The translations under genes were made by a program, and so were the position numbers. From NCBI GenBank assembly GCA_018015315.1, contig GCA_018015315.1_3629.1: DNA of 64,000 bases; one strand, 5' to 3'. Source of the DNA: a phage. This document shows positions 11,473-55,162 of the stretch, piece by piece; the first letter of the stretch is position 1; each line of letters opens with the position of its first letter. The notes beneath the pieces are model-generated. The model was not told the DNA's origin. It did no database searches and saw only the letters and a program-made list of their open reading frames with translations.

Positions 11473-13029
11473 TTAATTTTCCATGTTGGATATGGAATTA
11501 TCTCTGGTTGATGACATCTTAGAAGTGCCGTTGCCAGCGGATCCTGCAGCCATTCCATCGCCAGCCCTACTGATGTCCTGGCCCAAGAGCTTCATTAGCT
11601 CTTCCTGATCCATGTCCTCGTCAAATCTTTCATCAAACCCACCTACTTCAAGAATCTTATTAATTACTGCAGGAGTTTTTGGCAAGTAACCTACAGCACC
11701 GATCCTCTGGACAAACTTGGAGAAGCTCTCCATGTCCACCTCTTCAATCAGGCCAGGTTTCAGTTTAGGCATATCATCATCTTCAAGGATGATACCATTC
11801 AATGCCAGAAGCTGTGGAATAAGATCTTTATTGAAGGCCTCAGTGATAATATCTATATCACGCTGAACAAAATGACCATGGATAGACTGTTTTGACTCAG
11901 ACAGAGAGAAGGATCCGACGTTATCGTTACCGAGGTTAATAAAGCCAGCACCGAAACGGTCAAGAATCGCCTTCTTACGGGCATCAATCAAATCTTTAGT
12001 TGAATACTGCTTGCCCATACCGTCAACCCCCTTCAGGGTCATGGAGTAAAGCTCTTTACCAGACTTATCTCTATCAGACGGAAGTATAAAGAAACTTTGC
12101 TCCCCACTATGGGCGTTTGCTGCGTCAAGCATAAGATCTGCAACCATTCTCCCTTCCATTGAATTCGGGTCAATACTGGCCTTGTTCAAAATATTGGAAG
12201 GAATTTTCAGCTCAAGCACACCACCAAGGTCTTTGGAACAGCCAACAACCTCAAGGTTTTCAATCAAAACTTTCTCACGGAAAGATCTGTAGCAACCTAT
12301 CATCGGTGACACACCTGCAGGGTTAGATTCTGTTCCTGACAGAGTCATGAGCATAAGCTTTTTAGCAGGGATGAAAATTTCAGGCTCATTAAAGCCTTTT
12401 GAAGGCATTGCAGCGAGAGGACCAGCCCAGCGTGCATTCTGCGTGTTTAGAAATGCATTAGGTGATTGATAAATACCTGTCAGTGTTCTACTATTCTTGT
12501 CAAAGACAAACGGCTCTGATCTGGACAAACTGGCCTGTGGTCGGAACGCAATCTTATCAATAAGAAGCATCCCGGCGTATTTACCTTCTTTCTCTCTGCG
12601 GTATACTTTCTCAAACAGTGAAAAACCATACTCGTTAAAGGTAGCTGCGCTTCTTGCAATATCTCGAAGAGTTTGTTGGTTTGCCAAATTACGCAAAGAA
12701 TACTCTATAAGCTCGGCAGCTTTCTTAGAGTCTTCACTTTTAACATTATAAAGGATCTTAAAATCATTAAATGCTTTCGTGATGAAAACATATTTTGTAT
12801 CTAAGGCAGTAGCAACTGTGGAATCACATTTCATAGTCTCCACTGTGGCAATCAGTTGAGGCCAACGCAATTCCTCAACCATCATAGATTGTGATTCTGC
12901 CATAATTTGGGAAAGTGCGCCAGAACCGATCTCACTCATACGAACATTATGAGTTGGTGCGCCTGCGTTCCCAGATTTATTCACAGTTTTGGCTGTGGCG
13001 TTGTGTTTCCTGCGGTTCTTTTTGGACAC
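11473..13029 (-). CDS. portal protein
   Basis: 518 aa ORF directly downstream of terminase large subunit; acidic C-terminus. Confidence 0.6.
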   Translation of the reverse strand: MSKKNRRKHNATAKTVNKSGNAGAPTHNVRMSEIGSGALSQIMAESQSMMVEELRWPQLIATVETMKCDSTVATALDTKYVFITKAFNDFKILYNVKSEDSKKAAELIEYSLRNLANQQTLRDIARSAATFNEYGFSLFEKVYRREKEGKYAGMLLIDKIAFRPQASLSRSEPFVFDKNSRTLTGIYQSPNAFLNTQNARWAGPLAAMPSKGFNEPEIFIPAKKLMLMTLSGTESNPAGVSPMIGCYRSFREKVLIENLEVVGCSKDLGGVLELKIPSNILNKASIDPNSMEGRMVADLMLDAANAHSGEQSFFILPSDRDKSGKELYSMTLKGVDGMGKQYSTKDLIDARKKAILDRFGAGFINLGNDNVGSFSLSESKQSIHGHFVQRDIDIITEAFNKDLIPQLLALNGIILEDDDMPKLKPGLIEEVDMESFSKFVQRIGAVGYLPKTPAVINKILEVGGFDERFDEDMDQEELMKLLGQDISRAGDGMAAGSAGNGTSKMSSTRDNSISNMEN

Positions 13030-13052
13030 AAGCTTTACCCCTCAAAACAGTA

Positions 13053-13081
13053 TAACAAAATAGCCCTCGTGTTAGAGGGCT
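13053..13081 (-). terminator. hairpin between terminase and portal genes (attenuator?)
   Basis: AGCCCTC-GTGTTA-GAGGGCT followed by weak U-tract on minus strand. Confidence 0.3.
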
Positions 13082-13131
13082 AGTATCTCCGATTAATCTA
13101 TTCTACCACATCTAATTAAGATTGGCAACAC

Positions 13132-14679
13132 TTAGATAAAACGCTTGAACATAGAAGGTGATGAGATTGATGGAATCACACAAGGAAGTGCTACCTCCTC
13201 TTTCTCCAGGAAATTAATTGCAGAAGCTACACAGTCAGCCCAGTCGTCTTTTCTGTTAAATGTTGATCTTTCCCCGTTGAATTTTTCAAGTTCGGTCAGA
13301 AATGCTTCCAGAGTATCAGGATGGAAACTGGATTTTACAATCCTCACCATCCCTTGTTGGGCAAGATTGGCAAAAGGTGAGAACCTTGTCAGTTTAGACT
13401 TGTTGGAAGGCATTGGGTCTTCTTCAACCCTGAACCCTTCTGCGAGCAAGGATCTGGATGAGGTTAAGAACTCACTCTTACCTGCCTGACCAGGGTCCAC
13501 AGAGAATACGATTATACAATCATCACCATCAAACTGCGCCTGTTTCCTGATGATCACATCTCGTTCACCAGCCTTTTTACAGAACTTGCCTTCCAGACCT
13601 GTGGAATACCTCCCGTCATCCACGTTTTCAGGACAATAATCCCCTGACAGGTAATAAAATCCGTCGCTATCTTTACTTACCTTAACACTGGCGGTAAAGT
13701 CAGGAAATTTATTACCGGAAGTTCTCTCGGTTCCTGCCTTATCCCATGCCCTGCAAGATACTGATCCAAGGGGTACTCTATCGGCATCACGAAGGAAAGA
13801 TCTTTGAAAATAGTTTGCACCCTCAGGCTTTGCAAACCAGTTACCATGGAGAAGCTGAGCTTTTTCCAGCTCTGGTAGACCTTCGAGGAAAGCAAGGTAT
13901 TCTGGGTTGTCTCTCAAACAGACAGGATTATCGAATATTGTTGCGCCTATGAACGAGAATGACAACGGTCTTGGCTTGATCTCCACACCCAGTCCGTTAA
14001 CCGTGGTGTATTTCTCTATCAACTCTTCCTTAGAGTCTCCCCAAATAAATTCACCGTCGCGTCGGATAAAATATCTTTTCTTACCACATTTCTCCGGATC
14101 TGGATACCCTTCATCGTCCAACCACCATCTAACCAGTTTGGCAAGCATGTGTTCTGAATCAGGGTTACAGCTGATAACCATCCTTGATGGATACTTTGAC
14201 TGAGATCGCAGACGAGACATCAGGTAGTCTATCTGCTCCCATTCGAACTGCGTGCCCTCATCGAAGCAAACCATGGTGTACTCAAGCCCCTGATGGTTAA
14301 GCTTATCTTGTACATACTCCATGTGGCAGTATTTTACAACAGCTCCCTTTTTGCTTCTATCCCACTTGCCAGTGCTCGGATCAAACCGTGGAAAAATGAA
14401 CTTATGATCCTTCTCTCTAAACTTTGGCTTAATGTTTTCAGGCAGATCACTATAAATAGCTACTGCTTTAGGCCATAGTCCACCCTCACCTTCCAACTGC
14501 GGGGTTGTTCTTCGGAACATAACCACAGAGCTGTGGGGGTCATCAATAATTTTAAGCGGCATCAACTGCAAGAGGAACGACTTGCCAGACCCTGCGGCAC
14601 CGCCGATTACCAAAATATCTGCATCGTTTTCGAGGATCATCTTCTGCTTTTCAGAACACGGTCCGTAAATCTTAGACAT
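13132..14679 (-). CDS. terminase large subunit
   Basis: 515 aa; Walker A GGAAGSGKS near N-terminus, Walker B-like VCFDEG, C-terminal nuclease-sized domain. Confidence 0.85.
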   Translation of the reverse strand: MSKIYGPCSEKQKMILENDADILVIGGAAGSGKSFLLQLMPLKIIDDPHSSVVMFRRTTPQLEGEGGLWPKAVAIYSDLPENIKPKFREKDHKFIFPRFDPSTGKWDRSKKGAVVKYCHMEYVQDKLNHQGLEYTMVCFDEGTQFEWEQIDYLMSRLRSQSKYPSRMVISCNPDSEHMLAKLVRWWLDDEGYPDPEKCGKKRYFIRRDGEFIWGDSKEELIEKYTTVNGLGVEIKPRPLSFSFIGATIFDNPVCLRDNPEYLAFLEGLPELEKAQLLHGNWFAKPEGANYFQRSFLRDADRVPLGSVSCRAWDKAGTERTSGNKFPDFTASVKVSKDSDGFYYLSGDYCPENVDDGRYSTGLEGKFCKKAGERDVIIRKQAQFDGDDCIIVFSVDPGQAGKSEFLTSSRSLLAEGFRVEEDPMPSNKSKLTRFSPFANLAQQGMVRIVKSSFHPDTLEAFLTELEKFNGERSTFNRKDDWADCVASAINFLEKEEVALPCVIPSISSPSMFKRFI

Positions 14680-14966
14680 TAACCTCTCTCCTTTGGAAAC
14701 AGTGTTCTAATATAGTCTTGCAAAATGATCAATTTAGCTCTATCATTGCTACAAGACAAATTATTATCCCTCATAATGCCAGAATTTACTGCATCTGGAG
14801 CACCTTTCTTCAAAGGCATAGCTTTAGCAGGTGGTTTCATGGCACCTTCCGGGGGTTTAACAATCAACCTTCCTACATCTGGAGGGTCAATCTTGTATTC
14901 TCTCTCAACGCTGGTTGCACACCCACATAATAACAAGCACACAATAAACAGTGTAGCAACTCTCAT
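14679..14966 (-). CDS. o-spanin-like outer-membrane lipoprotein (Rz1-like)
   Basis: 95 aa; signal peptide with lipobox LLLCGC; Pro-rich mature region; start overlaps stop of upstream gene. Confidence 0.55.
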   Translation of the reverse strand: MRVATLFIVCLLLCGCATSVEREYKIDPPDVGRLIVKPPEGAMKPPAKAMPLKKGAPDAVNSGIMRDNNLSCSNDRAKLIILQDYIRTLFPKERG

Positions 14967-15361
14967 CTACCCTCCTGATTAATACTCTCATTATAAATAT
15001 CTATAAGCTGATCAGGGAGTGTTGACTTCTTACCCTCAGGTGACTGGAGGTAAATAATCTGCTTTTCTTTACCTGCCTTCTCAGCCATATTTAATTTATC
15101 CTGTAGATCAGAAAGGGATTTTTCAAGGTTTTTAACCTCCTCTGCGTGGCCCATTTTAATTTTGTCGGCCTGCTTTTGTTGCTGATCAAGGATCCGTTCC
15201 CACTTTAACTCTGTTGCTGACACACCTTCTTGGTAGGCATCATTAAGCTTAGAGTTAAACCAATACACGGCCCCAAGATAAGCTGTACCTATCGCAGCTG
15301 CAAAAACTAAACCTTTTATGATCCCTCTATACCTGCTCAGCCATGTTAAAACTGAAATCAT
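14963..15361 (-). CDS. i-spanin-like protein (Rz-like)
   Basis: 132 aa; single N-terminal TM segment then coiled-coil periplasmic domain. Confidence 0.55.
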   Translation of the reverse strand: MISVLTWLSRYRGIIKGLVFAAAIGTAYLGAVYWFNSKLNDAYQEGVSATELKWERILDQQQKQADKIKMGHAEEVKNLEKSLSDLQDKLNMAEKAGKEKQIIYLQSPEGKKSTLPDQLIDIYNESINQEGR

Positions 15362-15378
15362 TTTAAGGCTCCAGAAAC

Positions 15379-15410
15379 GAAAAAACCCCGCAGCTATACA
15401 GCTAACGGGG
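15379..15410 (-). terminator. rho-independent terminator
   Basis: CCCCG..CGGGG hairpin followed by TTTTTTCG on minus strand. Confidence 0.4.
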
Positions 15411-15466
15411 CGGGTTAAAATTGAGTAACCTAAATAGATCGAAACTAACTAAAAGGAGACTAATAC

Positions 15467-15736
15467 TTATCGAGGCACTCGGTGGATGATTCTAACAGTA
15501 ACTGCATTTTCATTCATCAAGTATGCATCTACATCTCTGTAAATATAAAACTTCTGCTCACTATCAACAACACAAGCTACCGCCCCTTCAGAGTTGTCTT
15601 CAAAAAAGACCACCACTGCATCGCAGCTGAGTTCATGATATGACTCTCGAAGATTTACAGCCAGAGGATTGAAATCGTCACGAAAATCTACGGTATGGGT
15701 TGGATTTACACGCTCTACAATTTTAAGTGTATACAT
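15467..15736 (-). CDS. hypothetical protein
   Basis: start moved to internal ATG (MYTLKIV) with AAAGGAA RBS because track ORF would overlap tRNA-Pro. Confidence 0.4.
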   Translation of the reverse strand: MYTLKIVERVNPTHTVDFRDDFNPLAVNLRESYHELSCDAVVVFFEDNSEGAVACVVDSEQKFYIYRDVDAYLMNENAVTVRIIHRVPR

Positions 15737-15782
15737 TTTAAAGGTTCCTTTTGTTTGTATATGTTTAAAGTATAACTGAAAG

Positions 15783-15859
15783 TGGTCTCCACGGAGTGAT
15801 TCGAACACTCGACCTCCTGATCCCAAATCAGGCGCTCTACCAAGCTGAGCTACGCGGAG
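15783..15859 (-). tRNA. tRNA-Pro (anticodon TGG)
   Basis: cloverleaf by eye: 7-bp acceptor stem (one G-T), anticodon loop TTTGGGA, T-loop TTCGAAT, encoded CCA. Confidence 0.8.
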
Positions 15860-15870
15860 TATTTACTATT

Positions 15871-15945
15871 TGGTGGCCCTGGGTGGAATTGAACCACCGT
15901 CTGGCGATTATGAGTCGCTTGCTTGAACCTTCCAGCTACAGGGCC
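15871..15945 (-). tRNA. tRNA-Met (anticodon CAT; initiator, elongator or Ile-lysidine not distinguishable)
   Basis: perfect 7-bp acceptor GGCCCTG/CAGGGCC, loop CTCATAA, T-loop TTCAATT, encoded CCA. Confidence 0.8.
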
Positions 15946-15946
15946 T

Positions 15947-16022
15947 TGGTGCTGATGGCAGGACTTGAACCTGCAACATATTGATTACAAATCAATTGCA
16001 CTACCAATTGTGCTACATCAGC
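15947..16022 (-). tRNA. tRNA-Thr (anticodon TGT)
   Basis: acceptor GCTGATG/CATCAGC, anticodon loop TTTGTAA, T-loop TTCAAGT, encoded CCA. Confidence 0.8.
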
Positions 16023-16029
16023 AAAAAGG

Positions 16030-16126
16030 TGCTAGGTGATGGAATCGAACCATCTATGTATTCAACGACTACCTCGTCTATTTTCAGGATTAAAAATCCT
16101 CGCCCTTGCCAAAGGGCTTACCTAGC
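16030..16126 (-). tRNA. atypical type-II tRNA-like gene (Leu-like scaffold, apparent anticodon TTT)
   Basis: perfect acceptor GCTAGGT/ACCTAGC, D-arm, perfect T-arm GATGG-TTCGATT-CCATC, discriminator A; anticodon hairpin AGGATTTTTAATCCT; about 30-nt variable region with GACGA/TCGTT hairpin; CCA not encoded. Confidence 0.45.
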
Positions 16127-16224
16127 TCAGTATGTTGACCATGTTGCTAGTCGGCGATGACGACTGTAACATTTGATAATCCGGTTCTGCTTCCGGCTTT
16201 CGCTTAATTACAAGGTCAACAATG

Positions 16225-16315
16225 TGGCAGAGGATAATGGAATCGAACCATCATCGAGTCATCCTCAACGGGACGGTTTTCAAGACCGCTTGAGCACCAT
16301 TGCTCCCTACCCTCT
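16225..16315 (-). tRNA. tRNA-Ser (anticodon TGA)
   Basis: type-II: acceptor AGAGGGT/ATCCTCT, anticodon loop CTTGAAA, about 20-nt variable arm, discriminator G, encoded CCA. Confidence 0.7.
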
Positions 16316-16432
16316 TTTATTATAAACAATACTGATAATGACACTGATTTTCGAGCAGTTAGTGACTAGTATAAACGACGATAAATACCAATGCCATTAT
16401 CTGTATGATTTATGCATCTAAAAATATAAATT

Positions 16433-16519
16433 TGGTGGGGAGTGGTGGAGTCGAACCACCCGAGTCGCAATGACAATAGATTTACAGTCTACACCGCTAC
16501 CTCTACGGGATAACTCCCC
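16433..16519 (-). tRNA. tRNA-Tyr (anticodon GTA)
   Basis: type-II: acceptor GGGGAGT/ACTCCCC, anticodon loop CTGTAAA, long variable arm, discriminator A, encoded CCA. Confidence 0.8.
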
Positions 16520-16523
16520 AATT

Positions 16524-16598
16524 TGGCACCCCGTACTGGACTCGAACCAGTGTCAACGGCTTAGAAGGCCGCTGCTTTATCCACTAAGCTAACAGGGC
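16524..16598 (-). tRNA. tRNA-Arg (anticodon TCT)
   Basis: anticodon stem-loop GCGGC-CTTCTAA-GCCGT, T-arm ACTGG-TTCGAGT-CCAGT, acceptor with two G-T pairs, encoded CCA. Confidence 0.75.
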
Positions 16599-16694
16599 AC
16601 TGGGTGGCTTTCTTTTACACCTTAGCCGCCAGAAAAGGTGGGAGACCATGTTTACAATATTACACTGTTAAGCAAAGTTTGTCAAGAAAATATT

Positions 16695-17033
16695 TTAGCT
16701 ATTGCTAACAGGCTGTATTTCTGTGGTGAATGGCATAAAAGGTGCTGGTTTTTCAGCCTCTTCTACTACCACCTCTTCCTCTTCACCAAACATCTCATCA
16801 TATTCTTCCTGCATTCGGTCTGCCTTATCAAGAACATACTCTGCAATGCTTTGACGAATATTTTGTTTGGTTTTCGGGTCCAACATCAGCTCTCTTAGAA
16901 CTTTGTGAGCTTCTGGAACCATCGCTATAAAAGATTCCTTCATATCAAGGATGTTCTTCTCTAGCTGAATGGCGTTGGACTCCTCTTTCAGAGGTCTGCC
17001 TCTACGGCGACGCTTTTTAGTTGTATCCGCCAT
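16695..17033 (-). CDS. hypothetical protein (basic N-terminus, acidic C-terminus)
   Basis: start moved to internal ATG (MADTTKKRRRRGRP) with GGAGG RBS. Confidence 0.4.
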   Translation of the reverse strand: MADTTKKRRRRGRPLKEESNAIQLEKNILDMKESFIAMVPEAHKVLRELMLDPKTKQNIRQSIAEYVLDKADRMQEEYDEMFGEEEEVVVEEAEKPAPFMPFTTEIQPVSNS

Positions 17034-17377
17034 GTTTCCTCCATTATCACGTGATAGGTGGATTTTATCATAGCAAATACTGATTGTCAAGTTCGCCGCA
17101 GGGTGGTATTCCCTGCGACTTGTCCAGCGTCCTGGACCAGCAAGACCCAACAAGTGGGTTACCAGAGCCCATTACCGCGCTTTGGCTAGACCTTATTACA
17201 GGTTGGCTGGGGTCACATCGTCATGTGCTGGCTGCCCCTACCATTTTAAGTGTGGTGCACTATCAAGCTCTCTAAGGGGAACTCAGCCTTCTCCGAACCC
17301 TGTTTCAAAGCATCCGGAGATAAAGCCATCAAATTCATCTTTAAATTGGATATTCATCATGATACACGAAAACAACC

Positions 17378-25418: not shown

Positions 25419-25889
25419 ATGAAACTTGATAAAAATGTTCAACGAAAAGCTTTCTTGGACATGATCGCATATTCGGAAGGCACAGATAATGGTAGGCAAC
25501 CCACTAAGGATCGGGGATACGATGTCATAGTTGGTGGCAAGCTGTTTAGCGATTACAGCAAGCATCCAGGTGTGTACGTTAAGCTAAATGCTAAACTTAC
25601 CTCCTCCGCTGCTGGTCGTTACCAGGTTTTGGAGAAGTTTGCTAAACACTACATGGAACAGTTAGGATTGCCAGATTTTGGCCCTGCCAGTCAGGACAAG
25701 ATTGCGTTGCAACTGATCCGTGAGTGCAAGGCTCTCGCCGACATTGACGAAGGGCGTATCCACGAGGCTATCCATAAATGCCGTTCCCGCTGGGCTTCGT
25801 TACCTGGTGCTGGATATGGTCAGCATGAACAGAAGATCGAGAAGTTGATCGAGGTGTTTAAAAAGGCAGGCGGTGTTGTCCTTGATTGA
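25419..25889 (+). CDS. endolysin, lambda R-type lytic transglycosylase
   Basis: 156 aa; near-colinear similarity to lambda R from memory (QRKAFLDM..SEGTDNGRQ..GYDVIVGG..ASLPGAGYGQ). Confidence 0.9.
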   Translation: MKLDKNVQRKAFLDMIAYSEGTDNGRQPTKDRGYDVIVGGKLFSDYSKHPGVYVKLNAKLTSSAAGRYQVLEKFAKHYMEQLGLPDFGPASQDKIALQLIRECKALADIDEGRIHEAIHKCRSRWASLPGAGYGQHEQKIEKLIEVFKKAGGVVLD

Positions 25890-25952: not shown

Positions 25953-26159
25953 ATGAAAGATTTTCTGTTGGCAATTTTGTTCATGGCAGCATGTCTGGCC
26001 TGTGGTGTCGTGTTTGCAGGTGAAACAGCGTATCTTGTCGATGTATATCGGGACAATGGTAAACGTATTTGCCTTTATGAGACAAGTCAAGGTGAGCTCT
26101 ACGAGCTTGTGAAACAAGGCGAGGCTGGATCTTGTCCTCGCACCCATTTCTTTGAATGA
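25953..26159 (+). CDS. small secreted/lipoprotein-like protein after endolysin
   Basis: 68 aa; single N-terminal hydrophobic segment with Cys; not holin-like topology. Confidence 0.4.
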   Translation: MKDFLLAILFMAACLACGVVFAGETAYLVDVYRDNGKRICLYETSQGELYELVKQGEAGSCPRTHFFE

Positions 26160-26168
26160 GGAGAATAC

Positions 26169-26633
26169 GTGGAAGACGGACGTTTAATGAAGTCTGAACG
26201 CAGGCTTATTGTGCAACTGATCCCAGAAACAGCTTGGTATAATAACCTCCGAAACGCTGTGAAGAAGAGTGAGTGGGATAAGATCCGTAAGAAGTGCTAC
26301 AGAGAAGCAAACTACACTTGCGAGGTGTGCGGAGGTAAAGGCAGCAAACATCCAGTTGAGTGTCATGAACTTTACACTTTCGAAGAAGGAGTGATCCGGC
26401 TTGTCGGACTGATAGCGTTGTGCCCAGATTGTCACACATCGGTGCATCCTGGGTTAGCAAATATCCGTGGAAAGTATGCTCAGGCAGTTAATCAGTTGGC
26501 TAAGGTGAATAAGATCACCAAGGGTATGGCAGAGGCGTATTACCGAGACTGCTTTGCAGAGTGGCGTGAGCTTAGTAAAGTTCCAGAATGGAAGACTGAC
26601 TTTTCGTGGATAGAGGGTTACCTTGATGGCTAA
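26169..26633 (+). CDS. zinc-finger protein, HNH-like nuclease candidate
   Basis: CEVCGG...ECHELY...CPDCH cysteine/histidine pattern; GTG start after GAGGAG. Confidence 0.4.
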   Translation: MEDGRLMKSERRLIVQLIPETAWYNNLRNAVKKSEWDKIRKKCYREANYTCEVCGGKGSKHPVECHELYTFEEGVIRLVGLIALCPDCHTSVHPGLANIRGKYAQAVNQLAKVNKITKGMAEAYYRDCFAEWRELSKVPEWKTDFSWIEGYLDG

Positions 26634-47479: not shown

Positions 47480-47716
47480 ATGGCCATAGATACTGTGTTG
47501 GTTTGGTATTGCGCATTGACCTTTCTGACAATGGTTGTTTTAGCAACTCTTTGCATCATATCTTGTAGAAAAATTAAGTTTGACGACTTTATAACTATAA
47601 TCACTGCCGCACCTTTTTGGCCTGTCGTTCTCTTCATTGTTGTTATGTGCTTGGTAGATCACTGTAAAACCGTCAGAAAAATGAAGGAGGAAGATAAGAA
47701 TGGTAACAGTGACTGA
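47480..47716 (+). CDS. small membrane protein (holin-like topology)
   Basis: 78 aa; two hydrophobic segments and charged C-terminal tail. Confidence 0.35.
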   Translation: MAIDTVLVWYCALTFLTMVVLATLCIISCRKIKFDDFITIITAAPFWPVVLFIVVMCLVDHCKTVRKMKEEDKNGNSD

Positions 47717-47830
47717 AACTGTTTATACTGTTCTTAGGGAGATTGCATTCTATACAGACCTTAGTTCAGTATCTTCATGGGAAAAGAGTGTGTATTTAAA
47801 ATGGTGCGTGAAATTAGAGGGGACCTTCTA

Positions 47831-47950
47831 ATGTTTCAAGCCATGTTTATTGAAATGCTCTCCGGAGTATTACTGCTGGTAGCCATTTTGGGTGGTGCGG
47901 CACTAATGTATAATTATCTTGAAAAAGGGGACAGTAATGACAAAAAATAA
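47831..47950 (+). CDS. small hydrophobic peptide (39 aa)
   Basis: GAGGGGA RBS; single TM-like segment; below track size cutoff. Confidence 0.3.
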   Translation: MFQAMFIEMLSGVLLLVAILGGAALMYNYLEKGDSNDKK

Positions 47951-54729: not shown

Positions 54730-54993
54730 ATGAACATCCTGATGTGGGTTATAGCAGTGGCGTTTGTTGCATGTTTTTGCTGCTGGGTTGCGGTGAGGAT
54801 TTCTGTAGCTACCCTTCGGAAGTTGGGGTTCTCAGAATGGGATATTGATATCCTTTCTTTTCGCAATGAGACAATATCAGCCGCCCTGCTTTGTAAGAAA
54901 TTCAAGTGGGAACCTTGTGAGGTCATGAACTATCTAAGAACGGGAGATATCCCTGAAAGATTTAAAAAAGTTCTTGACGGTAAGGATAAATGA
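54730..54993 (+). CDS. small membrane protein
   Basis: 87 aa; N-terminal TM segment. Confidence 0.4.
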   Translation: MNILMWVIAVAFVACFCCWVAVRISVATLRKLGFSEWDIDILSFRNETISAALLCKKFKWEPCEVMNYLRTGDIPERFKKVLDGKDK

Positions 54994-55021: not shown

Positions 55022-55162
55022 ATGACAGATTTTACTGAAGCTTTAATGATGGCCTTGTCTGTTTTAGCGCTATCGGTGTGTTTTGGGGCGTTATTCACAT
55101 CTCTGGTTAAAGTTTTACATACAGTATTATTACCCAAGGAGCGCAGTAATGACGAAGATTGA
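55022..55162 (+). CDS. small hydrophobic peptide (46 aa)
   Basis: AGGTGAGGA RBS; hydrophobic core; below track size cutoff. Confidence 0.35.
   Translation: MTDFTEALMMALSVLALSVCFGALFTSLVKVLHTVLLPKERSNDED

What the first reader, a model, noticed from the sequence alone, without database searches (positions are those of the whole stretch)
14679..15361. Spanin pair sits beside the terminase, separated from the endolysin; no small terminase recognised
An Rz-like/Rz1-like overlapping pair lies immediately upstream of the terminase large subunit, where a small terminase subunit is usually found. The lambda R-type endolysin is 10 kb away (25419) with no adjacent holin; the only holin-like ORF seen (47480-47716) is elsewhere. 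Lysis genes are therefore dispersed, and the small-terminase function is unassigned.
Basis: partly seen in the sequence, partly recalled or inferred. Interest (0 to 1): 0.45.

Follow-up and report, generated by a model that had tools for sequence, protein, structure and literature searches.

The report
rV5-type spanin pair beside terminase
This is the ordinary, already published gene layout of rV5-like E. coli phages, with the two outer-membrane-lysis (spanin) genes directly in front of the DNA-packaging enzyme much as in phage T7; the "missing" small packaging subunit is probably an unannotated 112-residue protein encoded 1.3 kb further upstream.

Summary
The window is a Vequintavirus (rV5-like myophage), 98-99% identical to MiataMamis, FFH2 and Murica.

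**Observation: correct.**
- On the minus strand, a 132-aa i-spanin (one N-terminal TMD) is followed by a 95-aa o-spanin (lipobox LCGC, Pro-rich). They overlap by ATGA.
- The o-spanin stop overlaps the TerL start (TAATG).
- A lambda-R-type endolysin lies 10 kb away on the other strand.
- The only small two-TMD ORF (47480-47716) is the homologue of rV5 gp129.

**All of this is published.**
- Kropinski 2013: lysin and gp129 as putative holin.
- Kongari 2018: rV5 spanin families.
- Buttimer 2020: spanins next to TerL in rV5, CB7 and PVP-SE1.
- T7 has the same logic: holin, TerS, spanins, TerL.

**New here: a small-terminase candidate at 16695-17033(-), the rV5 ORF74 homologue (phrog_3330).**
- It has an invariant RGRP AT-hook-like arm and an acidic tail.
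- Its helical hairpin aligns to the oligomerisation hairpin of the solved PaP3/NV1 TerS (hhalign 85-89%; controls ≤1.2%).
- Distant homologues sit directly upstream of TerL.
- This assignment is inferred, not shown.

The holin remains unidentified.

The parts
14963..15361 (-). i-spanin (Rz-like), 132 aa; homologue of rV5 gp068
   Evidence: One N-terminal TMD (residues 14-32); charged periplasmic part with no Cys. phrog_4297 at E=1.5e-49. Annotated i-spanin in JeffSchatz and Murica, and 'Rz-like spanin' in RefSeq rV5.
14679..14966 (-). o-spanin (Rz1-like lipoprotein), 95 aa; homologue of rV5 gp067
   Evidence: Lipobox LCGC with Cys16, Ala at +2, 9 Pro, one periplasmic Cys at C72. phrog_1267 at E=1.3e-22. 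ATGA overlap with the i-spanin; its stop overlaps the TerL ATG (TAATG).
13132..14679 (-). Terminase large subunit, 515 aa, intact (no intron or HNH insert, unlike rV5)
   Evidence: Terminase_6N at E=4.6e-20 and Terminase_6C at E=2.7e-6. phrog_979 at E=1.7e-208. In rV5 the gene is joined from three pieces with an HNH gene inside.
11473..13029 (-). Portal protein
   Evidence: phrog_113 portal at E=1.8e-88. Annotated portal in JeffSchatz.
15379..15411 (-). Terminator-like hairpin plus U6 tract, ending about 18 nt before the i-spanin ATG
   Evidence: An 11-bp GC-rich stem followed by UUUUUU. Centroid -16.9 kcal/mol, z = -1.9 against shuffles; sequence read. Function not shown.
15467..15736 (-). 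89-aa ORF of unknown function between the tRNA array and the spanins (rV5 gp069 homologue)
   Evidence: phrog_8729, unknown function. No TMD. The slot is not conserved: CB7 has a 184-aa virion protein there and 4MG a 474-aa ORF.
15783..16598 (-). tRNA gene array (Pro, Met/Ile2, Thr, a 97-99-nt tRNA, Ser?, Tyr, Arg)
   Evidence: ARAGORN genes. Rfam tRNA reaches the gathering score for 6.
16695..17033 (-). Candidate small terminase subunit, 112 aa (rV5 ORF74 homologue, phrog_3330). Layout: AT-hook-like RGRP arm, helical hairpin, acidic tail, C-terminal PFTT[ED]I motif
   Evidence: phrog_3330 at E=2.3e-46. G12-R13-P14 invariant in 27 family members. hhalign to the PaP3/NV1 TerS family gives 84.6%, and to a phrog_2538-TerS-like family 88.6%; controls give ≤1.2%. 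Homologues lie directly upstream of TerL in distant contigs L008 and L009. AF2 model shows a two-helix hairpin, pLDDT about 90 over residues 20-80. Annotated 'hypothetical' in all 60 sampled records.
17062..17090 (-). Sigma-70-like promoter just upstream of the 112-aa ORF
   Evidence: TTGACA-17-TAAAAT with TG, 11 of 12 matches. The rV5 record annotates 'Sigma70-type promoter P74' at the same place. A consensus match only.
25419..25889 (+). Endolysin, lambda R type (lytic transglycosylase fold), soluble
   Evidence: 1AM7 lambda lysozyme at E=3.4e-56 over residues 4-154, with the SEGT catalytic-Glu motif aligned. phrog_90 at E=3.2e-56. No TMD or SAR segment.
25953..26159 (+). 68-aa signal/lipoprotein-like ORF immediately downstream of the endolysin; function unknown
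   Evidence: Hydrophobic residues 4-22 and a possible lipobox MAAC. phrog_4641, unknown function. At least 95% identical in 120 of 124 phage records, nearly all Vequintavirus; the other 4 are below 60%.
47480..47716 (+). 78-aa two-TMD protein with charged C-terminus; homologue of rV5 gp129, the published putative class II holin
   Evidence: TMDs at 11-29 and 40-58. phrog_10061 unknown function; no Pfam hit. rV5 paper (PMC3606486). Only 55-60% identical in most Vequintavirus records.

Best explanation
The locus is the head of the packaging/morphogenesis gene string of an rV5-like (Vequintavirus) myophage.

**What the sequence shows.** A separated-type two-component spanin pair is translationally coupled to itself (ATGA) and to the large terminase (TAATG). 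The portal and head genes follow.

**Spanin mechanism (inferred from the family).**
- The i-spanin is anchored in the inner membrane by its N-terminal TMD.
- The o-spanin is lipidated at Cys16 and sorted to the outer membrane.
- The two C-terminal periplasmic parts bind across the periplasm.
- Once the peptidoglycan has been cleaved, they fuse the inner and outer membranes as the last step of lysis.

**Other lysis functions.** These are unlinked, as in T4 and T7. A soluble lambda-R-type endolysin (25419-25889) must be released by a canonical holin. The best candidate, still unproven, is the 78-aa two-TMD protein at 47480-47716 (rV5 gp129).

**Small terminase (proposed here, inferred).** The spanin genes do not replace TerS. 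It is most likely the 112-aa protein at 16695-17033(-). Its order relative to TerL is TerS candidate, tRNA island, 89-aa ORF, i-spanin, o-spanin, TerL. This is a stretched version of the T7 order: 18 (TerS), 18.5/18.7 (spanins), 19 (TerL).

**Proposed action of the candidate (inferred).**
- It forms a ring through its alpha-hairpin, as PaP3/NV1 TerS does.
- It contacts DNA near the packaging start through basic RGRP (AT-hook-like) arms instead of helix-turn-helix domains.
- It recruits TerL through its acidic tail and the conserved C-terminal PFTT[ED]I motif.
For: **Identity of the phage and the published layout**
- 98-99% nucleotide identity to rV5-like phages, with identical gene order in MiataMamis, JeffSchatz and rV5.
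- Spanin features are. rV5 is in the spanin census (PMC6139136).
- Spanins next to TerL in rV5, CB7 and PVP-SE1, and by the paper's account in SP6 and VP4 (PMC7344957); CB7 also.
- T7 order: holin, TerS, spanins, TerL.
- PaP3 order: tRNAs, TerS, lysozyme-like gene, TerL.
- Endolysin matches lambda R. gp129 as putative holin.

**TerS candidate: sequence evidence**
- The family profile finds only 22 proteins among 1.84 billion. One is P0047 (E=4.2e-4), which hits phrog_2538 'terminase small subunit' at E=5.4e-9 and phrog_3330 at E=1.1e-7.
- Other family members hit TerS PHROGs weakly, at E=0.0025-0.007.
- hhalign of the family against the solved PaP3/NV1 TerS family gives Prob 84.6%, E=6.9e-6, over PaP3 residues 66-107.
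- That stretch is the alpha4-alpha5 oligomerisation hairpin, residues 64-105 (PMC7672466).
- Against the P0047 family the probability is 88.6%. P0047 family against PaP3 gives 97.4%.
- Reversed or column-shuffled templates give ≤1.2%.
- The AF2 model is a two-helix hairpin with pLDDT about 90.
- It has an acidic C-terminal tail, as PaP3 TerS does.

**TerS candidate: gene context**
- The order candidate, tRNAs, spanins, TerL is kept in CB7 and partly in 4MG.
- In a 110-kb metagenomic relative the homologue abuts TerL: its stop is followed at once by the TerL start, with the spanin-like pair upstream of it.
- In another contig it lies 55 bp before TerL exon 1.
- In a third it lies about 1.7 kb upstream of TerL exon 1, co-oriented.
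Against: - No experiment exists for any of these proteins in rV5-like phages.
- The TerS similarity covers only about 42 columns of a helical hairpin. It is below 90% probability.
- HMM-to-sequence hits to the solved TerS chains 7JOQ and 6W7T are not significant (E=0.26-0.46).
- The candidate lacks the HTH domain and the beta-barrel strand of PaP3-type TerS.
- It has its own near-consensus sigma-70-like promoter (annotated in rV5). A terminator-like hairpin lies between it and the spanin-TerL genes. It may therefore be expressed earlier than, and apart from, TerL.
- Members of the bridging P0047 family are not adjacent to an identifiable TerL in the two contexts examined. One is labelled a 'predicted transcriptional regulator' by its source.
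- The holin candidate has no homology to any known holin and is unusually variable.
Confidence: 0.6

Rival explanations
1. The 112-aa protein is not the small terminase. It would instead be an early or middle small DNA-binding protein, such as an AT-hook nucleoid or transcription modulator. The true TerS would then be another unrecognised small ORF, possibly outside this window, or the phage would package without a classical TerS.
For: - A near-consensus sigma-70-like promoter lies directly upstream. rV5 annotates a run of such promoters through this block of small ORFs.
- A terminator-like hairpin lies before the spanin-TerL genes.
- The protein has no HTH.
- Only a 42-column hairpin similarity links it to TerS.
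- Fold searches are uninformative.
- One member of the bridging family is called 'predicted transcriptional regulator' by its source and carries a weak GerE hit.
Against: - Distant homologues sit in the canonical TerS slot, abutting or 55 bp before TerL.
- The profile similarity falls exactly on the TerS oligomerisation hairpin and far exceeds the controls.
- The linkage to TerL is conserved across the Vequintavirinae genera.
- No other small ORF near TerL gave any TerS signal.
Confidence: 0.33
2. The 132-aa protein upstream of TerL is itself the small terminase, and its spanin annotation is a mislabel caused by a coiled-coil sequence.
For: - It occupies the position immediately 5' of the o-spanin and TerL.
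- It gives a weak hit to phrog_1206 'terminase small subunit' (E=0.014, 16 bits) over residues 47-130.
Against: - It has an N-terminal transmembrane segment.
- It matches a spanin family full-length at E=1.5e-49.
- It is translationally coupled to a lipobox protein.
- The same TMD-protein plus lipoprotein pair recurs in CB7 and in the metagenomic relative L008. There it is separated from TerL by other genes, while the 112-aa homologue abuts TerL.
- T7 shows that spanins can lie next to TerL with a separate TerS.
Confidence: 0.02
3. The holin is not the 78-aa two-TMD protein (the gp129 homologue). It would be another small membrane protein: either the well-conserved 68-aa ORF next to the endolysin (25953-26159) or one of the single-TMD ORFs at 47777-47950, 54730-54993 or 55022-55162.
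For: - The 78-aa protein has no homology to known holins.
- It is only 55-60% identical in most otherwise nearly identical Vequintavirus genomes.
- The 68-aa ORF is adjacent to the endolysin and ≥95% identical in 120 of 124 records.
Against: - The 68-aa ORF looks like a cleaved signal peptide or lipoprotein rather than a membrane-spanning holin.
- The 78-aa protein is the only small ORF with two TMDs and a charged C-terminus.
- Holins are generally fast-evolving (general knowledge).
Confidence: 0.3

Closest known systems
rV5 gp068/gp067 spanins and the Vequintavirinae layout (Kropinski 2013; Kongari 2018; Buttimer 2020)
   Same: The genes and their order are the same: spanin pair, TerL, portal. 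The lysin (gp89) is unlinked, gp129 is the putative holin, and no TerS is annotated. The window is 98-99% identical to members of the genus.
   Different: Nothing substantive. TerL here is uninterrupted, whereas rV5 and LL12 carry intron/HNH insertions.
Phage T7 late-region order: 17.5 (holin), 18 (TerS), 18.5/18.7 (spanins), 19 (TerL)
   Same: The spanin genes lie immediately 5' of TerL and 3' of a small TerS. The endolysin is encoded far away. LL12, an rV5 relative, is predicted to have short non-permuted terminal repeats like T7.
   Different: - The T7 o-spanin is embedded in the i-spanin gene; here the pair is end-to-end.
- The T7 holin is adjacent to TerS; here no holin is nearby.
- Here a tRNA island and an 89-aa ORF separate the TerS candidate from the spanins.
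- There is no detectable sequence similarity between the candidate and T7 gp18.
Phage T4 PseT.3/PseT.2 spanins and dispersed lysis genes
   Same: The i- and o-spanin genes have the separated architecture. The i-spanin has no Cys. Holin, endolysin and spanins are all unlinked.
   Different: The spanin sequence families differ. The T4 holin T has one TMD and a large periplasmic domain. The T4 spanins are not next to the terminase genes (general knowledge).
PaP3/NV1 small terminase (PDB 6W7T, 7JOQ; Pfam PF20901 Sf6_terminase)
   Same: The 112-aa candidate aligns to the alpha4-alpha5 oligomerisation hairpin and ends in an acidic tail. In PaP3 also, tRNA genes precede TerS and a lysis-type gene sits between TerS and TerL.
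   Different: The candidate has no N-terminal HTH domain; a basic RGRP arm takes its place. It has no evident beta-barrel strand. It is 40 residues shorter. Similarity is 85% hhalign probability over 42 columns only.
Lambda Rz/Rz1 and lambda R
   Same: [quoted passage not shown] The endolysin is a clear lambda R homologue.
   Different: Lambda has a contiguous S-R-Rz/Rz1 cassette with Rz1 embedded in Rz, and Rz has Cys99 and Cys152. Here the genes are scattered, end-to-end, and the i-spanin has no Cys.

Membership tests
Two-component spanin: i-spanin (Rz class) | Single N-terminal transmembrane domain with the bulk of the protein periplasmic | tested here: met
   A Kyte-Doolittle window at residues 14-32 scores 1.8, with no other hydrophobic segment. 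No dedicated topology predictor was available.
Two-component spanin: i-spanin (Rz class) | Sequence membership in a curated spanin family | tested here: met
   phrog_4297 at E=1.5e-49, covering 1-130 of 130 profile positions. rV5 is listed among the i-spanin families in Kongari 2018.
Two-component spanin: i-spanin (Rz class) | Gene adjacent to, overlapping or embedding an o-spanin gene | tested here: met
   ATGA start/stop overlap with the 95-aa lipoprotein gene.
Two-component spanin: o-spanin (Rz1 class) | Lipoprotein signal with lipobox and an outer-membrane sorting signal (no Asp at +2) | tested here: met
   MRVATLFIVCLLL-CGC gives L-C-G-C16 with Ala17 at +2. The -2 Cys departs from the strict consensus [LVI][ASTVI][GAS]C, but o-spanin lipoboxes are known to deviate.
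Two-component spanin: o-spanin (Rz1 class) | Short, proline-rich mature periplasmic domain | tested here: met
   The mature part is about 79 aa with 9 Pro.
Two-component spanin (complex) | At least one periplasmic Cys for an intermolecular disulfide (507 of 528 systems) | tested here: met
   The o-spanin has C72; the i-spanin has none.
Two-component spanin (complex) | Outer-membrane disruption, shown by complementation of lambda Rz/Rz1 | not testable with these tools
   Needs genetics. No such experiment for rV5-type spanins was found in the papers read.
Small terminase subunit (PaP3/Sf6-like TerS), for the 112-aa ORF | Alpha-helical hairpin oligomerisation core | tested here: inconclusive
   hhalign gives 84.6% to the PaP3/NV1 family over PaP3 residues 66-107, and 88.6% to a phrog_2538-like family; controls give ≤1.2%. 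AF2 predicts a hairpin. HMM-to-sequence E-values are only 0.26-0.46, and fold searches were non-specific.
Small terminase subunit (PaP3/Sf6-like TerS), for the 112-aa ORF | N-terminal helix-turn-helix DNA-binding domain | tested here: not met
   There is no HTH. Residues 1-15 are a basic arm with invariant G-R-P. Pfam AT_hook is just below threshold in family members, 16.1 bits against a cut-off of 17.4. The protein is therefore not filed as a PF20901 member, only as TerS-like.
Small terminase subunit (PaP3/Sf6-like TerS), for the 112-aa ORF | Gene co-oriented with and immediately upstream of TerL | tested here: met
   In the window itself it lies 2.0 kb upstream, with tRNAs and spanins between. 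In distant homologues it abuts TerL (L008) or lies 55 bp before TerL exon 1 (L009).
Small terminase subunit (PaP3/Sf6-like TerS), for the 112-aa ORF | Ring oligomer (8-12-mer), binding to the packaging site, stimulation of TerL | not testable with these tools
   Needs biochemistry or multimer modelling. Only single-chain prediction was available.
Lambda R-type endolysin (lytic transglycosylase) | Full-length homology to lambda lysozyme, including the catalytic Glu in the SEGT motif | tested here: met
   1AM7 at E=3.4e-56 over residues 4-154; 'AYSEGTDNGRQ' aligns to 'AWSEGTDNGRQ'. Pfam gave no hit at E≤0.01, while PHROG endolysin gave E=3.2e-56.
Class II holin, for the 78-aa ORF | Small protein with two TMDs and a charged cytoplasmic C-terminus | tested here: met
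   TMDs at 11-29 and 40-58; C-terminus KTVRKMKEEDKNGNSD. This agrees with the TMHMM and Phobius result reported for rV5 gp129.
Class II holin, for the 78-aa ORF | Homology to a characterised holin family, or linkage to the endolysin or spanins | tested here: not met
   phrog_10061 has unknown function and there is no Pfam hit. The gene is 22 kb from the endolysin and 32 kb from the spanins. It is therefore a candidate only.

The most novel reading that the evidence does not exclude
The Vequintavirinae and their uncultured relatives would use a previously unrecognised, minimal small terminase (phrog_3330, the rV5 ORF74 family). It keeps only the TerS oligomerisation hairpin and an acidic tail. 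It replaces the usual helix-turn-helix DNA-binding domain with an AT-hook-like RGRP arm that reads the minor groove. It carries a conserved C-terminal PFTT[ED]I peptide that could dock onto TerL. This would be a new variant of TerS architecture. It would also give a first handle on packaging initiation in a large, therapeutically used group of coliphages.
Probability: 0.5. Interest if true: 0.45.

Novelty: already known. Interest (0 to 1): 0.2.

Why it matters
**The finding as written matters little.**
- The spanin-beside-terminase layout, the scattered lysis genes and the unidentified holin are all in the rV5-group literature.
- They are also in the GenBank and RefSeq annotations.
- The layout mirrors T7.

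**The useful by-product is practical.**
- rV5-like phages are among the coliphages most often isolated for therapy and biocontrol.
- Yet all 60 records sampled for this ORF call it hypothetical, and none of the annotated regions examined names a small terminase.
- If the 112-aa ORF74-family protein is the TerS, annotation pipelines could label it.
- Genome ends could then be rationalised, given the 459-bp terminal repeat predicted for LL12.
- An HTH-less TerS with an AT-hook-like arm would widen the known range of DNA recognition by packaging motors.

The holin of this group remains an open, easily testable question.

Tried and rejected
**Direct annotation of the 112-aa ORF.** Pfam gave nothing and PHROGs gave only phrog_3330 'unknown function'.

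**Profile against PDB sequences.** The NV1 and PaP3 TerS chains appear among the top four hits. Their E-values (0.26-0.46) are no better than those of unrelated helical proteins such as uL30 and Rop. This is a lead, not a test.

**Structure route.**
- The first AF2 model (20 sequences) had pLDDT 69, and Foldseek against the PDB gave 0 hits.
- A two-helix monomer is too simple for fold search. I take this as neither support nor refutation.

**Comparison with T7 gp18.** No similarity: hhalign probability 0.1%.

**hhalign against the single PaP3 sequence.** Only 7%. A family alignment was needed.

**Context of the bridging P0047 family.**
- I looked for TerL adjacency and did not find it.
- In roughly 48-kb contigs these genes open a rightward operon.
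- They are followed by small ORFs and fibre-like proteins.
- The bridge therefore rests on profile similarity to PaP3/NV1 (97.4%) and on a PHROG label.

**Other small ORFs near TerL as TerS candidates.** The 89-aa, 80-aa, 62-aa and 192-aa ORFs all match unknown-function PHROGs with no TerS signal.

**The i-spanin as TerS.** Rejected: it has a TMD and a strong spanin-family match.

**Contigs too short to be informative.** P0044, P0048 and P0035.


Full report
**What the window is.** A 3-kb probe around the finding matches 634 phage records. The best are Escherichia phages MiataMamis (99.2%), FFH2, Murica and other rV5-like myophages of the genus Vequintavirus, at 98-99% identity over the whole probe. 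Gene order in the window is the same as in the annotated relatives MiataMamis, the manually curated BASEL phage JeffSchatz and the rV5 reference.

**The observation.** All of the following lie on the minus strand.
- A 132-aa ORF (15361..14963) is followed by a 95-aa ORF (14966..14679), a 515-aa ORF (14679..13132) and the portal gene (13029..11473).
- The 132-aa protein has one hydrophobic segment at residues 14-32, a charged remainder and no cysteine. It matches phrog_4297 'Rz-like spanin' end to end at E=1.5e-49.
- The 95-aa protein starts MRVATLFIVCLLLCGC. That gives a lipobox L-C-G-C with Cys16 and Ala at +2.
- Its roughly 79-residue mature part has 9 prolines and one further cysteine, C72. 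It matches phrog_1267 'Rz-like spanin' at E=1.3e-22.
- The two genes share only ATGA (stop and start), preceded by GGAGGG. The o-spanin stop overlaps the terminase start (TAATG). All three genes are therefore translationally coupled.
- Kongari et al. class a pair with an 8-bp overlap as 'separated', so this pair counts as separated, like T4 pseT.3/pseT.2, rather than overlapped or embedded.
- The 515-aa protein is a T4-type large terminase: Terminase_6N and Terminase_6C, and phrog_979 at E=1.7e-208.

**The other lysis genes.**
- The ORF at 25419-25889(+) is a full-length homologue of lambda lysozyme (1AM7, E=3.4e-56), with the SEGT catalytic motif aligned and no hydrophobic N-terminus. It is a soluble endolysin that needs a hole-forming holin.
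- The next gene (25953-26159) encodes a 68-aa protein with a signal- or lipoprotein-like N-terminus and unknown function (phrog_4641).
- In a crude hydropathy scan of all non-overlapping ORFs in the window, the 78-aa ORF at 47480-47716 is the only small protein with two TMDs. It has a charged C-terminus but no match to any holin family.

**It is already known.**
- The rV5 genome paper names gp89 as the lysin. It reports that a TMHMM and Phobius scan found one 78-residue, two-TMD, basic-tailed protein, gp129. [quoted passage not shown]
- The spanin census of Kongari et al. lists rV5 in its i- and o-spanin families (PMC6139136).
[quoted passage not shown] It also predicts a 459-bp non-permuted terminal repeat (PMC6658697).
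[quoted passage not shown] They note similar arrangements in SP6 and VP4 (PMC7344957; the CB7 locus is).
- RefSeq rV5 and several GenBank records already label the two genes as spanins.

**The placement is not an anomaly.** In T7 the order is 17.5 holin, 18 small terminase, 18.5/18.7 spanins, 19 large terminase. In PaP3 a lysozyme-like gene sits between TerS and TerL, and tRNA genes precede TerS.

**The small terminase.** None of the public annotations sampled names one. BASEL linearised its Vequintavirus genomes at the i-spanin, the first gene of the terminase operon.

I looked upstream of the spanins on the same strand. The order there is an 89-aa ORF, seven tRNA genes, then a 112-aa ORF at 16695-17033 (MADTTKKRRRRGRPLKEESN...). 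The 112-aa ORF is rV5 ORF74 and belongs to phrog_3330, 'unknown function'. All 60 sampled records out of 221 call it hypothetical.

*Family features.*
- An alignment of 27 family members shows an invariant G-R-P in a basic arm, with neighbouring R9 conserved in at least 90% of members.
- A conserved helical region follows, then a variable acidic linker.
- Most members end in a C-terminal PFTT[ED]I motif.
- Pfam's AT_hook model scores just under threshold in several members.

*Sequence evidence for TerS.*
- A profile search of 1.84 billion representative proteins returned only 22 hits.
- One hit, the 207-aa P0047, matches both phrog_2538 'terminase small subunit' (E=5.4e-9) and phrog_3330 (E=1.1e-7). 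Three other members give weak TerS-PHROG hits at E=0.0025-0.007.
- Profile-profile comparison of the family with homologues of the crystallised PaP3/NV1 small terminase gives 84.6% probability (E=6.9e-6) over 42 columns, covering PaP3 residues 66-107.
- In the PaP3 structure, residues 64-105 are the alpha4-alpha5 hairpin of the oligomerisation core. It is followed by a beta-strand and an acidic tail (PMC7672466).
- Against the P0047 family the probability is 88.6%. The P0047 family matches the PaP3 family at 97.4%.
- With reversed or column-shuffled templates the best probability was 1.2% and the best score 17, against 39-42 for the real alignments.
- AlphaFold2 with the wider alignment predicts two long helices (16-51 and 57-82) with pLDDT about 90.

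*Gene-context evidence for TerS.*
- The order candidate, tRNA(s), spanins, TerL holds in CB7. In 4MG the homologue likewise precedes the tRNA island and a membrane-protein gene, but the fetched stretch ends before TerL.
- In a 110-kb metagenomic relative (L008), a TMD protein and a lipobox (LAGC) protein come first, then a 413-aa gene. The 124-aa homologue follows, and its stop codon is followed at once by the TerL start. The portal comes next.
- In a second contig (L009) the homologue ends 55 bp before the first exon of an intron-split TerL.
- In a third (L013/L014) it lies about 1.7 kb upstream of TerL exon 1, with a tRNA and three small ORFs between.

Together these points make the 112-aa protein the best TerS candidate. 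The window's arrangement then reads as a T7-like TerS, spanins, TerL order, stretched by a tRNA island.

**What weakens the TerS assignment.**
- The similarity is confined to a helical hairpin and stays below 90% probability.
- HMM-to-sequence hits to the solved TerS chains are not significant.
- Fold searches were uninformative.
- The protein lacks an HTH and an obvious barrel strand.
- A near-consensus sigma-70-like promoter lies right upstream: TTGACA-17-TAAAAT with TG, at 17090-17062. It is also annotated in rV5.
- A terminator-like hairpin with a U6 tract (15411-15379) ends about 18 nt before the i-spanin start. The candidate may therefore be transcribed separately from, and earlier than, TerL.
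- In two contexts the bridging P0047-family genes are not next to a recognisable TerL, and one relative is labelled a transcriptional regulator by its source.

I put the TerS assignment at about one half, and the overall reading of the locus at 0.6.

**The 132-aa protein is not a terminase subunit.** It has a TMD. Its only TerS-family hit is a 16-bit coiled-coil match at E=0.014.

**The holin.** Nothing here improves on the literature.
- The 78-aa protein remains the only classical-looking candidate.
- It is restricted to Vequintavirus.
- It is oddly variable: 99 of 116 records are below 60% identity, in genomes that were 90-99% identical over the 3-kb probe.
- The 68-aa ORF next to the endolysin is ≥95% identical in 120 of 124 records.
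- Which of them, if either, is the holin needs an experiment.

**Verdict.** Interest is low. The one addition is a testable candidate for the unannotated small terminase: an HTH-less, AT-hook-armed TerS-like protein.

Noticed in passing
window 47480-47716: The 78-aa two-TMD holin candidate is hypervariable. 99 of 116 matching phage records are below 60% amino-acid identity to it. The same genomes were mostly 90-99% identical in nucleotides over the 3-kb probe at 13000-16000. This suggests allelic replacement or diversifying selection at this small membrane-protein gene.
   Followed up: partly
window 25953-26159: A 68-aa ORF lies directly downstream of the endolysin. It has a strongly hydrophobic N-terminus and a possible lipobox (MAAC/CLAC). 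It is ≥95% identical in 120 of 124 records and almost confined to Vequintavirus, and its function is unknown (phrog_4641). It could be a lysis accessory or a surface/exclusion lipoprotein.
   Followed up: partly
window 16028-16126 (-): An over-long tRNA-like gene of 97-99 nt. ARAGORN reports a four-base anticodon (atcc) and no isotype. Rfam tRNA scores 37.5 bits. JeffSchatz annotates the equivalent gene as tRNA-Lys. It may carry an insertion or intron, or be a frameshift-suppressor-like tRNA.
   Followed up: no
window 16225-16315 (-): ARAGORN calls a tRNA-Ser(tga) here, and rV5 annotates it ('discovered using ARAGON'). Rfam's tRNA model does not reach its gathering score, and MiataMamis and JeffSchatz do not annotate it.
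   Followed up: no
window 15379-15411 (-) and 16657-16685, 17062-17090 (-): A terminator-like hairpin with a U6 tract ends about 18 nt before the i-spanin ATG, leaving no room for a promoter after it. Near-consensus sigma-70-like promoters flank the 112-aa ORF, one before it and one before the tRNA array. Spanin and TerL expression would therefore need read-through or an unrecognised late promoter.
   Followed up: partly
window 13132-14679 (-): TerL is uninterrupted here. rV5 (three exons with an HNH gene), LL12, CB7 and the metagenomic relatives L009 and L013 have TerL split by introns or HNH genes, in L009 and L013 close to the Walker A motif. The phrog_979 profile carries about 146 extra N-terminal positions that this TerL does not match.
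   Followed up: no
search hits to window 13000-16000: About 18 GenBank records named 'Campylobacter phage' with host C. jejuni (MG0656xx series) are 98-99% identical to these E. coli rV5-like phages and carry no annotation. They are probably mis-attributed hosts or coliphage contaminants in those isolates.
   Followed up: no
L008 2998-5375 (metagenomic relative): A distant relative keeps a TMD-protein plus LAGC-lipoprotein pair in the terminase neighbourhood but in a different order: spanin-like pair, 413-aa CapR-domain protein, TerS candidate, TerL. Linkage of spanins and packaging genes is therefore older than the Vequintavirinae, but the order is permuted.
   Followed up: partly
window 26169-26633 (+): A free-standing HNH endonuclease gene (phrog_5200, E=2.1e-72) lies two genes downstream of the endolysin. 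BASEL annotates it as a putative homing endonuclease.
   Followed up: no
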